Part shown: piece by piece, positions 6,234-9,988 of the stretch
Layout: each line of letters begins with the position of its first letter
How positions within the stretch are numbered: the first letter of the stretch is position 1
Assembly: GCA_964016885.1 (NCBI GenBank)
Contig: OZ024765.1
Coordinates: forward strand, 12,090,001-12,154,000
Length of the DNA: 64,000 bases
Direction of reading: 5' to 3'
DNA from: Eledone cirrhosa
Lineage: Eukaryota
The notes under the pieces: model-generated
The model's input: the letters and a program-made list of their open reading frames with translations, nothing else
Databases searched by the model: none
Told to the model about the DNA's origin: nothing
Program-made: the position numbers and the translations under genes

Positions 6234-6721
6234 TAGGGAGAGATAGCATTATAAATATGAATATGTGAGCGTGTGTGTATGTACATATTAATACATTTTA
6301 ACGAATGAGGTATATAACGAGACAACCTGCAGGAAGATATTAGCAAATTCTATTTCAAACAGAATTAAGATCCAAAAACGTTATTTGAAAAAAATAAACA
6401 TTCGAAAATGGAGAAAAAAAATAAATAAATAATCATCCAAGGGGAATAACTCTCAAATTTCTCTAAGGCAAATAACATTAAAAATCAGCGGACTAAATAC
6501 CTTGCGGTTATAAGTTCTTTCCCCTGAAAATTCGTAAACTTATGTTATATTTAGTTTTTACACACACACACACACAAATATATATATATATATACTGTAT
6601 GTATGTGTATATATATAGTGTATGTATACATGTGTATATATATATATATATATACTGTATGTATGTGTATGTGTTTGTGTATATGTATATATATATAAGT
6701 ATAAAGTATATACTTTCGAAC

Positions 6722-6808
6722 GTTCAACTATCTGGCAGATGGGTAAACGGTGCTGATGATAGCTAACAAGCTTGAAACTAGTACATCGTTCCTGTGTCAG
6801 TGTTGAAC
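6722..6808 (+). ncRNA. Extended type I hammerhead ribozyme, copy 1
   Basis: Stem I AACGGTG(6746-52)/CATCGTT(6784-90); CTGATGA 6753-59; stem II T-AGC-TAACAA-GCT-T; GAAA 6774-77; stem III CTAG; GUA cleavage after 6783; distal pairings CTGGCA/TGTCAG and GTTCAAC/GTTGAAC. Confidence 0.9.
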
Positions 6809-7142
6809 AAAAAGGTGACGTGGTTGCCTTAACACCGTATGGCATAAATTCAGGCTGTTCAGTTTGTTTACAAACGAACAAAGCGACGTTATAATAAGCG
6901 CCGCTAAACTGATACGTGCATATATGTATGTGTACCTGTATGCATATGTATATATATATGTATATATATATATATATATATATGTGCATGCTACTGTACG
7001 TCTGTATACACATATGTATGTACGTATACATGCATACTTACATTTAAGTAAGTGCCATACTAAGAGTGAGAAATGAAATTTCGTTTTCATTTTGTTTCAA
7101 TTTATCGTTTTCGGTATGCCTGACCGATTTAACTCACTCAAT

Positions 7143-7190
7143 ATGCAAATTAGGCTGCTCAGCCGTTAATTTTCATAAGGAAAGTATATA
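7143..7190 (+). promoter_or_regulatory. Octamer ATGCAAAT + TAATTTTCATA + TATA-like block (repeated in each full unit)
   Basis: ATGCAAAT at 7143-7150, 80 nt upstream of the next CTGATGA; the same block is conserved in the diverged relative at ~55205-55260 (minus). Confidence 0.5.
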
Positions 7191-7199
7191 CTTTCGAAC

Positions 7200-7286
7200 G
7201 TTCAACTATCTGGCAGATGGGTAAACGGTGCTGATGATAGCTAACAAGCTTGAAACTAGTACATCGTTCCTGTGTCAGTGTTGAAC
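7200..7286 (+). ncRNA. Hammerhead ribozyme, copy 2
   Basis: Same sequence as copy 1; predicted cleavage after 7261. Confidence 0.9.
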
Positions 7287-7677
7287 AAAAAGGTGACGTG
7301 GTTGCCTTAACACCGTATGGCATAAATTCAGGCTGTTCAGTTTGTTTACAAACGAACAAAGCGACGTTATAATAAGCGCCGCTAAACTGATACGTGCATA
7401 TATGTATGTGTACCTGTATGCATATGTATATATATATGTATATATATATATATATATATATGTGCATGCTACTGTACGTCTGTATACACATATGTATGTA
7501 CGTATACATGCATACTTACATTTAAGTAAGTGCCATACTAAGAGTGAGAAATGAAATTTCGTTTTCATTTTGTTTCAATTTATCGTTTTCGGTATGCCTG
7601 ACCGATTTAACTCACTCAATATGCAAATTAGGCTGCTCAGCCGTTAATTTTCATAAGGAAAGTATATACTTTCGAAC

Positions 7678-7764
7678 GTTCAACTATCTGGCAGATGGGT
7701 AAACGGTGCTGATGATAGCTAACAAGCTTGAAACTAGTACATCGTTCCTGTGTCAGTGTTGAAC
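7678..7764 (+). ncRNA. Hammerhead ribozyme, copy 3
   Basis: Same sequence as copy 1; predicted cleavage after 7739. Confidence 0.9.
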
Positions 7765-8155
7765 AAAAAGGTGACGTGGTTGCCTTAACACCGTATGGCA
7801 TAAATTCAGGCTGTTCAGTTTGTTTACAAACGAACAAAGCGACGTTATAATAAGCGCCGCTAAACTGATACGTGCATATATGTATGTGTACCTGTATGCA
7901 TATGTATATATATATGTATATATATATATATATATATATGTGCATGCTACTGTACGTCTGTATACACATATGTATGTACGTATACATGCATACTTACATT
8001 TAAGTAAGTGCCATACTAAGAGTGAGAAATGAAATTTCGTTTTCATTTTGTTTCAATTTATCGTTTTCGGTATGCCTGACCGATTTAACTCACTCAATAT
8101 GCAAATTAGGCTGCTCAGCCGTTAATTTTCATAAGGAAAGTATATACTTTCGAAC

Positions 8156-8242
8156 GTTCAACTATCTGGCAGATGGGTAAACGGTGCTGATGATAGCTAA
8201 CAAGCTTGAAACTAGTACATCGTTCCTGTGTCAGTGTTGAAC
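8156..8242 (+). ncRNA. Hammerhead ribozyme, copy 4
   Basis: Same sequence as copy 1; predicted cleavage after 8217. Confidence 0.9.
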
Positions 8243-8633
8243 AAAAAGGTGACGTGGTTGCCTTAACACCGTATGGCATAAATTCAGGCTGTTCAGTTTG
8301 TTTACAAACGAACAAAGCGACGTTATAATAAGCGCCGCTAAACTGATACGTGCATATATGTATGTGTACCTGTATGCATATGTATATATATATGTATATA
8401 TATATATATATATATATGTGCATGCTACTGTACGTCTGTATACACATATGTATGTACGTATACATGCATACTTACATTTAAGTAAGTGCCATACTAAGAG
8501 TGAGAAATGAAATTTCGTTTTCATTTTGTTTCAATTTATCGTTTTCGGTATGCCTGACCGATTTAACTCACTCAATATGCAAATTAGGCTGCTCAGCCGT
8601 TAATTTTCATAAGGAAAGTATATACTTTCGAAC

Positions 8634-8720
8634 GTTCAACTATCTGGCAGATGGGTAAACGGTGCTGATGATAGCTAACAAGCTTGAAACTAGTACATCG
8701 TTCCTGTGTCAGTGTTGAAC
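8634..8720 (+). ncRNA. Hammerhead ribozyme, copy 5
   Basis: Same sequence as copy 1; predicted cleavage after 8695. Confidence 0.9.
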
Positions 8721-8866
8721 AAAAAGGTGACGTGGTTGCCTTAACACCGTATGGCATAAATTCAGGCTGTTCAGTTTGTTTACAAACGAACAAAGCGACG
8801 TTATAATAAGCGCCGCTAAACTGATACGTGCATATATGTATGTGTACCTGTATGCATATGTATATA

Positions 8867-8899
<33 letters not shown>

Positions 8900-9115
8900 G
8901 TGCATGCTACTGTACGTCTGTATACACATATGTATGTACGTATACATGCATACTTACATTTAAGTAAGTGCCATACTAAGAGTGAGAAATGAAATTTCGT
9001 TTTCATTTTGTTTCAATTTATCGTTTTCGGTATGCCTGACCGATTTAACTCACTCAATATGCAAATTAGGCTGCTCAGCCGTTAATTTTCATAAGGAAAG
9101 TATATACTTTCGAAC

Positions 9116-9202
9116 GTTCAACTATCTGGCAGATGGGTAAACGGTGCTGATGATAGCTAACAAGCTTGAAACTAGTACATCGTTCCTGTGTCAGTGTTGA
9201 AC
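9116..9202 (+). ncRNA. Hammerhead ribozyme, copy 6
   Basis: Same sequence as copy 1; predicted cleavage after 9177. Confidence 0.9.
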
Positions 9203-9348
9203 AAAAAGGTGACGTGGTTGCCTTAACACCGTATGGCATAAATTCAGGCTGTTCAGTTTGTTTACAAACGAACAAAGCGACGTTATAATAAGCGCCGCTA
9301 AACTGATACGTGCATATATGTATGTGTACCTGTATGCATATGTATATA

Positions 9349-9382
<34 letters not shown>

Positions 9383-9595
9383 CATGCTACTGTACGTCTG
9401 TATACACATATGTATGTACGTATACATGCATACTTACATTTAAGTAAGTGCCATACTAAGAGTGAGAAATGAAATTTCGTTTTCATTTTGTTTCAATTTA
9501 TCGTTTTCGGTATGCCTGACCGATTTAACTCACTCAATATGCAAATTAGGCTGCTCAGCCGTTAATTTTCATAAGGAAAGTATATACTTTCGAAC

Positions 9596-9682
9596 GTTCA
9601 ACTATCTGGCAGATGGGTAAACGGTGCTGATGATAGCTAACAAGCTTGAAACTAGTACATCGTTCCTGTGTCAGTGTTGAAC
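9596..9682 (+). ncRNA. Hammerhead ribozyme, copy 7
   Basis: Same sequence as copy 1; predicted cleavage after 9657. Confidence 0.9.
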
Positions 9683-9988
9683 AAAAAGGTGACGTGGTTG
9701 CCTTAACACCGTATGGCATAAATTCAGGCTGTTCAGTTTGTTTACAAACGAACAAAGCGACGTTATAATAAGCGCCGCTAAACTGATACGTGCATATATG
9801 TATGTGTACCTGTATGCATATGTATATATATATGTATATATATATATATATATATATGTGCATGCTACTGTACGTCTGTATACACATATGTATGTACGTA
9901 TACATGCATACTTACATTTAAGTAAGTGCCATACTAAGAGTGAGAAATGAAATTTCGTTTTCATTTTGTTTCAATATATATATATATA

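What the first reader, a model, noticed from the sequence alone, without database searches (positions are those of the whole stretch)
6703..9975. Tandem array of seven extended hammerhead ribozymes: a retrozyme-like self-cleaving RNA system
Seen: every 478-482 bp unit contains a complete type I hammerhead core (CUGAUGA, GAAA, GUA site), a 7-bp proximal stem I extended by further helices, and a short stem II with loop UAACAA. The unit has no credible ORF. Known: tandem hammerhead repeats (newt satellite 2, Schistosoma Sm-alpha, metazoan non-LTR retrozymes) are transcribed, self-cleave to monomers and can circularise. Inference: a plus-strand transcript would be cut after 6783, 7261, 7739, 8217, 8695, 9177 and 9657, releasing six monomers of 478-482 nt. 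The array starts and ends mid-unit inside TA-rich microsatellite, as expected for a multimeric cDNA copied from a circular RNA. I cannot tell whether this family has already been catalogued. Caveat: positions 10.1/11.1 are U-U rather than G-C.
Basis: partly seen in the sequence, partly recalled or inferred. Interest (0 to 1): 0.93.

Follow-up and report, generated by a model that had tools for sequence, protein, structure and literature searches.

The report
Hammerhead retrozyme with Penelope-type insertion ends
This is one young copy of an abundant, non-coding jumping element that carries a self-cutting RNA motif; the kind is already known in animals, but the ends of its copies show unusually clearly that it borrows the enzymes of Penelope-like retrotransposons and is probably copied round and round from an RNA circle.

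Summary
Array confirmed: 6.85 units of 478-482 bp, identical except for (TA)n length, each with a type I hammerhead. It is one insertion of a dispersed family (10,718 exact and 24,370 degenerate core matches in the genome), i.e. a non-LTR retrozyme, a known kind. The U·U mismatch has a cleaving precedent (axolotl HHR_Amex2).

What this adds is the insertion anatomy. Of 105 arm 3' ends, 84 fall at two fixed sites about 59 nt apart, and 81 of those 84 abut (TA)n. 5' ends are scattered and not enriched at the cleavage site. All 16 classifiable inverted pairs have one long and one short end. That is the Penelope-like-element (PLE) 'tail' signature, shared by three Neptune-like PLE families here. 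Rare variants run through whole arrays, including the inverted arm, which favours reiterated copying of one monomer (a circle).

Cleavage, expression and circles were not testable, and no parent PLE was found. The scan earlier noted PLE-type ends on a ribozyme-free tandem element in another genome (e1-7881736). Verdict: new member of a known kind.

The parts
6703..9975 (+). Whole insertion: 6.85 head-to-tail retrozyme units, single arm, 5'-truncated at unit position 398, 3' end at the family's 'long' site
6746..6790 (+). Hammerhead 1: stem I 5' strand 6746-6752, CUGAUGA 6753-6759, U10.1 6760, stem II 6761-6772, U11.1 6773, GAAA 6774-6777, palindromic stem III ACUAGU 6777-6782, cut after 6783, stem I 3' strand 6784-6790
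6722..6808 (+). Extended stem I (three further helices) that would hold the 5' and 3' ends of a cut monomer together; covaries between subfamilies
7224..7268 (+). Hammerhead 2 (cut after 7261)
7702..7746 (+). Hammerhead 3 (cut after 7739)
8180..8224 (+). Hammerhead 4 (cut after 8217)
8658..8702 (+). Hammerhead 5 (cut after 8695)
9140..9184 (+). Hammerhead 6 (cut after 9177)
9620..9664 (+). Hammerhead 7 (cut after 9657)
6837..6844 (+). 5' arm of a long-range helix pairing with 7053-7060 in the tail (two columns with compensatory changes); repeated in each unit
   Evidence: columns 21/290 and 25/286
6912..7041 (+). Internal (TA)/(TG)/(CA) microsatellite region, predicted to form long helices; the only variable part between this array's units
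7036..7053 (+). Hairpin whose loop holds the 'short' 3' end site (about 7043-7046 in unit 1); 39 of 105 arm ends in the family stop here
9918..9975 (+). Terminal about 58-nt 'tail' between the short and long 3' end sites (45 of 105 arm ends stop at the long site); holds the 12-mer at 9958-9969 shared with the tail of Neptune-like family 1
7143..7150 (+). Octamer ATGCAAAT, once per unit; possible promoter element (lead only, p about 0.03)
6578..6702 (.). Left flank: (TA)/(TG) microsatellite, the presumed target
9976..9989 (.). Right flank: (TA)n run abutting the long 3' end; a target-site duplication cannot be read inside TA

Best explanation
A non-autonomous, non-LTR retrozyme that parasitises a Penelope-like element (PLE). 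Steps: (1) Inferred: tandem copies are transcribed on the plus strand, probably by Pol II because each unit holds four T4 runs. (2) Inferred from the structure and from tested relatives: pairs of type I hammerheads pair through the palindromic stem III and cut after GUA, giving about 480-nt monomers whose ends are held by the extended stem I and joined by an RtcB-type ligase into circles. (3) Shown as a genomic footprint: a PLE RT/GIY-YIG protein nicks (TA)n DNA and starts cDNA inside the RNA at one of two fixed sites about 59 nt apart. When both target strands prime, one starts at each site, giving inverted pairs with the tail on one arm. (4) Inferred from array-wide variants and from 5' ends not collecting at the cut site: the RT laps a circular monomer several times and stops at a variable point. 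This window's copy is a single-arm product of 6.85 laps. Component odds: retrozyme-type element 0.93; PLE machinery 0.9; ribozyme cleaves 0.75; circular template 0.65; Neptune-like family 1 is the helper 0.35.
For: Copy number: 10,718 exact, 24,370 degenerate. Among 100 listed cores with the catalytic positions left free, 90 are intact. N7 varies family-wide (33 U, 67 C by my count of the listing); the 10 deviations from the invariant core are scattered, with one change seen three times in a single local cluster. Structure: 94.2% of cells paired, and 19 cells changed on both sides against 8.9 in shuffles, 0/500; 8 of 79 pairs over the unit are compensatory; the plus strand folds 37 kcal/mol better than the minus. 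Ends: 45 long + 39 short of 105; 81 of 84 abut TA; 16 of 16 classifiable inverted pairs are long+short; arm junctions mostly show 0-5 nt microhomology (13 of 14). Three Neptune-like PLE families here show the same two-site ends at TA, with inverted pairs long+short in 7 of 8, 3 of 3 and 2 of 2. PMC11167929 shows in vitro that a PLE protein nicks both strands of AT-rich DNA and starts RT internally at two sites that bound the tail. Single-template signs: within-array divergence median 0-0.5% against 3.8-5.1% between loci; 13 of 31 multi-copy insertions carry a variant in all sampled copies and in no other sampled insertion, 5 of them across both arms; A16G (at most 115 non-A genome-wide) is listed for 9 minus-arm units plus the inverted unit at one locus (6 of 6 checked). 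5' junctions exactly at the cut site: 2 of 20, against 13 of 20 at a control position.
Against: Cleavage and RNA were not observed. In the predicted ensemble of the circular monomer, the three core-proximal pairs of stem I have probabilities of only 0.18-0.28, so the catalytic fold is not the predicted ground state. Only 1 of 9 Xenopus retrozyme dimers cleaved in the 2026 preprint, and hammerhead cleavage was dispensable for PLE insertion in vitro. No autonomous PLE with a homologous pLTR was found in 50 GIY-YIG loci; only a 12-mer is shared with family 1's tail (p 0.0015 for one of three families tested; 9 nt in subfamily B). Tail length is 56-59 nt against about 62, 40 and 40-52 in the three PLE families, so none matches exactly. 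'Private' variants are private only within about 55 sampled insertions out of thousands. Covariation counts rest on few subfamily splits (pairs with a change on both sides: 4 against 3.4 shuffled, 190/500). A core-mutant (AGAA) copy was inserted with both arms (L187), so an intact core is not always required. A >50-kb array with a dead cut site shows DNA-level amplification also happens.
Confidence: 0.68

Rival explanations
1. Same element and same PLE helper, but the template is an uncut linear multimeric transcript from a donor array. The hammerhead is slow or dispensable, and arrays look uniform because donors are uniform.
For: Hammerhead mutants did not impair PLE insertion in vitro and uncut RNA was the main substrate (PMC11167929). 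It also explains the lack of 5' ends at the cut site. Weak predicted catalytic fold. L187 has a mutant core in both arms, and L169 shows ABAB units.
Against: A new variant has to become fixed in all units of a donor first. Rare variants fill whole arrays including inverted arms while sister arrays of the same subfamily lack them. 5' truncation would shorten arrays each generation unless they are rebuilt. The core is kept intact across subfamilies about 10-15% apart.
Confidence: 0.2
2. The units are detached pseudo-LTRs of an autonomous PLE not yet found. Single pLTRs insert and are then multiplied in place by unequal crossing-over (the satellite model proposed in the 2026 preprint).
For: The preprint finds Xenopus retrozymes homologous to PLE pLTRs and proposes local amplification. 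One >50-kb array with G17 shows DNA-level expansion. Only 50 of 150 scored GIY-YIG loci (10,595 candidates) were inspected.
Against: Multi-unit arms occur on the inverted side with the same variants as the other arm (L006, L273). None of the family copies found in the 50 GIY-YIG loci formed the pLTR of the PLE ORF there. Most arrays are 2-10 units and bounded by exact PLE-type ends.
Confidence: 0.09
3. A SINE-like or satellite repeat moved by a LINE, with a chance or dead hammerhead-like motif, or an assembly artefact.
For: No Rfam gathering hit. Perfect unit identity can come from collapsed or polished assemblies.
Against: Two-site ends with strict long+short pairing are a PLE feature. Core conservation and helix covariation. 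Units differ in (TA)n length, and other loci have their own haplotypes.
Confidence: 0.03

Closest known systems
Metazoan non-LTR retrozymes (Cervera & de la Peña 2020, PMC7229834: coral, mussel, axolotl Rtz_331/Rtz_353; newt satellite 2)
   Same: Tandem, low-GC, non-coding units with one type I hammerhead each; weak palindromic stem III; highly self-paired predicted circle; thousands of copies; PLEs in the same genome. HHR_Amex2 also has U·U at the base of stem II.
   Different: The unit is longer (420-540 bp across copies) than the 150-450 bp given there and carries an internal microsatellite. In the sections I read, no fixed RT start sites, tail or inverted arms are described. Cleavage and circRNA were shown there and are untested here.
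Vertebrate non-LTR retrozymes as non-autonomous PLE derivatives (Li, Clavereau, Pollet, bioRxiv 10.64898/2026.07.22.740005)
   Same: Meets their definition (at least 2 consecutive units with a complete hammerhead, motif MFE below -5 kcal/mol); same proposed helper class.
   Different: Their evidence is co-occurrence and pLTR homology; the word 'tail' does not occur in the main text and no mollusc is mentioned. Here there is no pLTR homology beyond a 12-mer, and the link is the insertion anatomy.
EN+ Penelope-like elements (Neptune, Poseidon, Naiad; Craig et al. 2021; Frangieh et al. 2024, PMC11167929)
   Same: 5' truncation, inverted 5'-truncated arm, tail on one end only, AT/(TA)n target, hammerhead upstream of the RT start sites.
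   Different: No RT or GIY-YIG ORF; many full laps rather than partial tandems; tail 56-59 nt rather than the 30-40 nt quoted; an extended rather than minimal hammerhead.
Plant LTR retrozymes (PMC4918200; seen as a search listing and as described in the papers above)
   Same: Non-coding, hammerhead-bounded, circRNA intermediate.
   Different: Type III hammerheads, LTR/PBS/PPT, 4-bp TSD and a Gypsy helper; none of this arrangement is seen here.

Membership tests
Non-LTR retrozyme | Type I hammerhead with full core (C3 U4 G5 A6 N7 G8 A9, G12 A13 A14, A15.1-U16.1, H17) | tested here: met
   90 of 100 listed genomic cores intact
Non-LTR retrozyme | At least two consecutive tandem units each with a complete motif; motif MFE below -5 kcal/mol | tested here: met
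   7 cores; -12.3 kcal/mol for a 54-nt fragment, though the MFE mispairs part of the core
Non-LTR retrozyme | Unit of a few hundred bp, GC below 45-50%, non-coding | tested here: met
   478 bp (above the 150-450 of PMC7229834, inside the 51-972 of the preprint); GC about 35%; no credible ORF; no tRNA gene
Non-LTR retrozyme | Dispersed high copy number, monomers to multimers | tested here: met
Non-LTR retrozyme | Highly self-paired predicted circle | tested here: met
   z -8.9 (window type), -11.7 (subfamily B), 25 shuffles each; covariation
Non-LTR retrozyme | Self-cleavage as monomer or dimer | not testable with these tools
   needs in vitro transcription
Non-LTR retrozyme | Accumulation of unit-length circular RNA | not testable with these tools
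   no RNA data could be examined
Non-LTR retrozyme | TSD longer than 4 bp when present | tested here: inconclusive
   both flanks are (TA)n
Non-LTR retrozyme | Absence of LTR, PBS and PPT | tested here: inconclusive
   pure tandem layout with no LTR-interior-LTR form; PBS and PPT were not searched separately
PLE-type insertion (works like) | Two fixed 3' ends bounding an optional tail, tail on one end only | tested here: met
   84 of 105 ends; 16 of 16 classifiable pairs
PLE-type insertion (works like) | Variable 5' truncation and inverted 5'-truncated arm | tested here: met
PLE-type insertion (works like) | AT-rich or (TA)n target | tested here: met
   81 of 84 ends
Autonomous PLE | RT plus GIY-YIG ORF | tested here: not met
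   no such ORF in the unit
pLTR derivative of a resident PLE | Homology of the unit to the pLTR of an RT-bearing PLE | tested here: inconclusive
   none in 50 GIY-YIG loci except a 12-mer; most loci not inspected
Rfam hammerhead families | Score at or above the gathering threshold | tested here: not met
   0 hits; HH9 18.5 of 52 bits

The most novel reading that the evidence does not exclude
The family is a genomic record of rolling-circle reverse transcription. A dimeric Neptune-like PLE protein holds one retrozyme circle, primes both nicked strands of a (TA)n target at two structured sites about 59 nt apart, and laps the circle up to about ten times. The two cDNAs then join by microhomology. 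The 60-nt tail, with its 12-mer shared with family 1, would be the cis signal by which an animal retrozyme picks its helper. The unit may carry its own octamer-type promoter.
Probability: 0.4. Interest if true: 0.72.

Novelty: new member of a known kind. Interest (0 to 1): 0.5.

Why it matters
How animal retrozymes get back into genomes is openly unresolved. The 2020 review says their repeats show no motif that identifies the helper (PMC7761336), and the 2026 preprint says the mechanism remains to be elucidated. This family gives exact RT start sites, a strict long+short rule for inverted arms, young near-identical copies, and long-ORF candidate helpers in the same genome (938 aa, 96-97% identical among copies). 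With the published in vitro PLE assay, that makes 'PLE protein laps a retrozyme circle' directly testable. The element class itself is not new.

Tried and rejected
Rfam: no gathering hit; the miRNA-like hits are microsatellite artefacts. A DNA search of the own genome returned nothing, not even the locus itself, because common words are skipped; patterns were used instead.

Sequencing runs: no RNA holder listed, which says nothing on expression. Laying four runs gave 7,360 contigs for X1, which may be the assembly's own source and so is not independent support, and only 1, 6 and 3 contigs for X2, X4 and X5; this is no evidence for spread to other species.

Parent PLE: no pLTR homology in 50 GIY-YIG loci. 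The family copies in L095, L111 and L112 are neighbouring insertions, not part of those PLEs. The protein search with the family 1 ORF confirmed PLE-type domain sets but gave no clade or host name. 'Neptune-like' rests on the C-x-C-x-x-C motif before a C-terminal GIY-YIG (description); no tree was built.

The inverted repeat copies either side of the array (6061-6200 and 9991-10130) were rejected as part of the element, because at least 11 near-full copies lie in the window. My first end classifier missed one subfamily and was replaced by alignment.

Host: I suspected an octopod from a recalled repeat landscape. This was not tested; no window ORF gave a usable marker.

Literature: I found no report of a cephalopod retrozyme or of PLE-type tails on retrozymes in searches, or in term look-ups in PMC7229834, PMC13282606 and the 2026 preprint. 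The supplement of PMC7229834 could not be read and bioRxiv supplements are closed; either could list this family, as could Repbase or Dfam, which were not available. The newt satellite 2 snRNA-type promoter is recalled; I could not retrieve it.
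Full report
OBSERVATION. The array is real and as described. TRF gives period 478 and 6.8 copies. Seven cores predict cuts after 6783, 7261, 7739, 8217, 8695, 9177 and 9657, and the six full units have no substitutions, only 2-4 nt length changes that lie in the (TA)n run. 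Each motif reads AACGGUG - CUGAUGA - U - AGCU(AACA)AGCU - U - GAAA - CUAG - UA - cut - CAUCGUU. Stem III is a 2-bp stem inside the palindrome ACUAGU. PMC4209133 (passages read) describes this as the usual metazoan type I form, which cleaves poorly alone and well as a dimer. Rfam does not reach threshold. The U10.1·U11.1 caveat has precedents: PMC3088659 (passages) and the axolotl retrozyme ribozyme HHR_Amex2, which cut 22% as a monomer and much more as a dimer (PMC7229834, results parts 1-2 and discussion read).

COPY NUMBER AND SELECTION. The window lies in a 3.0-Gb genome. The 31-nt core has 10,718 exact matches and 24,370 with four degenerate positions; a tail motif has 31,333; all reversed controls are 0. 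At least two subfamily groups exist, with units of about 466-540 and 420-433 bp. With the catalytic positions left free, 90 of the first 100 listed cores are intact. By my count of that listing, N7, the one free core position, splits 33 U to 67 C, and the ten deviations are scattered, one of them seen three times in a single cluster. On 35 hand-picked distinct haplotypes out of 84, the extended fold is 94.2% paired. Cells changed on both sides number 19 against 8.9 in shuffles (0/500), but pairs changed on both sides number only 4 against 3.4 (190/500), so few independent events support it. Over about 370 nt, 8 of 79 predicted pairs are compensatory in 20 copies, including a long-range helix into the tail. 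The circular unit folds at z -8.9, or -5.5 without the microsatellite. Against the reading: the three core-proximal stem I pairs have probabilities of only 0.18-0.28 in that ensemble.

INSERTION ANATOMY. In 73 fetched stretches, all from the start of contig C1 plus the window, I classified 105 arm 3' ends by alignment. There were 45 'long', 39 'short', 9 ending in or before the microsatellite, 5 continuing into a core-mutant unit, 5 other and 2 at an edge. The two sites are 56-59 nt apart, and 81 of the 84 are followed by TA repeats. Of 25 outward-facing pair rows, 16 had both ends classified and all 16 were long+short; two of these rows come from one locally duplicated locus. The other 9 had one unclassified end. 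5' ends scatter over the unit (45 of 75 lie between positions 267 and 460, 30 lie further upstream), and 13 of 14 inversion junctions overlap by 0-5 nt. This window's copy is a single arm with a long end at 9975 and a 5' truncation at 6703. Craig et al. (passages) list exactly these traits for PLEs: inverted 5'-truncated copy, tail on one end, microsatellite bias. Frangieh et al. (PMC11167929, parts 1-2 of 4 read) showed that a PLE protein nicks both strands of AT-rich DNA and starts RT inside the RNA at two sites that bound the tail.

CANDIDATE HELPERS. A GIY-YIG search gave 10,595 candidates, 150 scored; I inspected 50 loci. Several families have RT plus C-terminal GIY-YIG. Most carry a C-x-C-x-x-C linker, hence 'Neptune-like' (no tree built), and one is a distant Poseidon-like type. 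Three families have hammerhead-like motifs with 11,761, 6,239 and 5,901 exact matches. They show the same two-site ends at TA: 26 of 30, 16 of 16 and 14 of 16 ends, with classified inverted pairs long+short in 7 of 8, 3 of 3 and 2 of 2. Their tails are about 62, 40 and 40-52 nt. Family 1 (938-aa open frame in L101, a pLTR-to-pLTR period of 4,979 bp, copies 96-97% identical) has the closest tail length and shares a 12-mer with the retrozyme tail (p 0.0015 by shuffling; families 2 and 3 p 1.0 and 0.9). No wider homology was found, so the helper is a candidate only and no parent element is identified.

CIRCLE OR LINEAR TEMPLATE. Copies within an array differ by a median of 0-0.5%, opposite arms by 0.5-1.1%, and different loci by 3.8-5.1%. 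Of 31 multi-copy insertions, 13 carry a variant in all sampled copies and in no other sampled insertion, 5 of them across both arms. A16G, with at most 115 non-A copies genome-wide, is listed for nine consecutive minus-arm units and the inverted unit at C4:51.91 Mb, and for four plus one at C6:81.64 Mb. I verified 6 of 6 units at C4; other arrays of that subfamily lack it. Unequal crossing-over would not carry a variant into the inverted arm. If cut linear RNA were the template, 5' ends should pile up at the cut site. The genome-wide counts are 187, of which at least 54 lie in one satellite array, against 115 at a control position; true junctions were 2 of 20 against 13 of 20. So templates were either circles or uncut multimers. 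Array-wide new variants favour circles. The uncut-multimer rival stays at 0.2, because cleavage was dispensable in vitro, a core-mutant copy was mobilised (L187), and privacy of variants is judged on a small sample.

WHAT IS KNOWN. The class was defined in PMC7229834, which proposed PLEs as helpers and cDNA multimers from circles. PMC7761336 (passages) says no motif reveals the helper. The July 2026 preprint (parts 1-3 of 5 read, covering methods, results and discussion) argues PLE origin from co-occurrence and pLTR homology in Xenopus, without end analysis. My searches found no description of this family or of tail and inversion signatures on retrozymes. Unread supplements and repeat libraries could hold it. 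I saw it after forming my reading and did not test it.

VERDICT. New member of a known kind. The array itself is an ordinary young retrozyme insertion, so 0.93 is too high. The family's ends make a stated open question testable, which earns 0.5.

Noticed in passing
G000:C3:12272037-12324199 (listing): A satellite-like array of this unit over more than 50 kb in which at least 54 units carry G at hammerhead position 17, which should abolish cleavage; suggests DNA-level expansion of a dead copy. The sequence itself was not read.
   Followed up: no
L169 (G000:C1:19313800-19318000): Four full units alternate between two haplotypes, ABAB: a dimeric circle or a two-unit duplication.
   Followed up: partly
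L187 (around G000:C1:4531619): Divergent copy with AGAA in place of GAAA and a different stem II loop, in both arms of an inverted insertion.
   Followed up: partly
L041 (G000:C1:43089200-43092500): Old array of six diverged units in which the outermost unit of each arm is identical to the other, hinting at conversion or duplication between inverted arms.
   Followed up: no
L101, L113, L104 families: Three high-copy Neptune-like PLE families with minimal hammerhead-like motifs. Family 1 has the U3-A8 core variant; family 2 reads GCAA instead of GAAA; family 3 has U·U at the base of stem II like the retrozyme.
   Followed up: partly
L103, L106, L110, L117: Other repeated type I hammerhead candidates with longer stem III recur near PLE loci; probably further hammerhead families in this genome.
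   Followed up: no
window 7143-7150 and once per unit: Octamer ATGCAAAT, intact in 17 of 20 aligned copies, p about 0.03 by shuffling. A CACCGTA stretch about 170 nt downstream resembles an snRNA PSE (consensus recalled, not tested).
   Followed up: partly
window 44634-45438 (-): Fragment of a Poseidon-like PLE (RT end plus GIY-YIG, about 50% identical to the L111 protein).
   Followed up: partly
window 6061-6200 (-) and 9991-10130 (+): Two copies of a common interspersed repeat flank the array in inverted orientation; at least 11 near-full copies lie in the window, so probably coincidence.
   Followed up: yes
window 39901-41067 (-): GC-rich 388-aa stop-to-stop frame, low complexity, with one hydrophobic stretch like a single-pass membrane segment; no Pfam hit; possibly an exon.
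   Followed up: partly
window 32464-33629 (+): Two overlapping frames with a C-x2-C and a PD-(D/E)xK-like stretch, resembling the end of a non-LTR retrotransposon with a restriction-like endonuclease (resemblance recalled; no Pfam hit).
   Followed up: no
window about 53100-56400 and 56450-59700: A roughly 3.3-kb tandem duplication (features recur at +3333).
   Followed up: no
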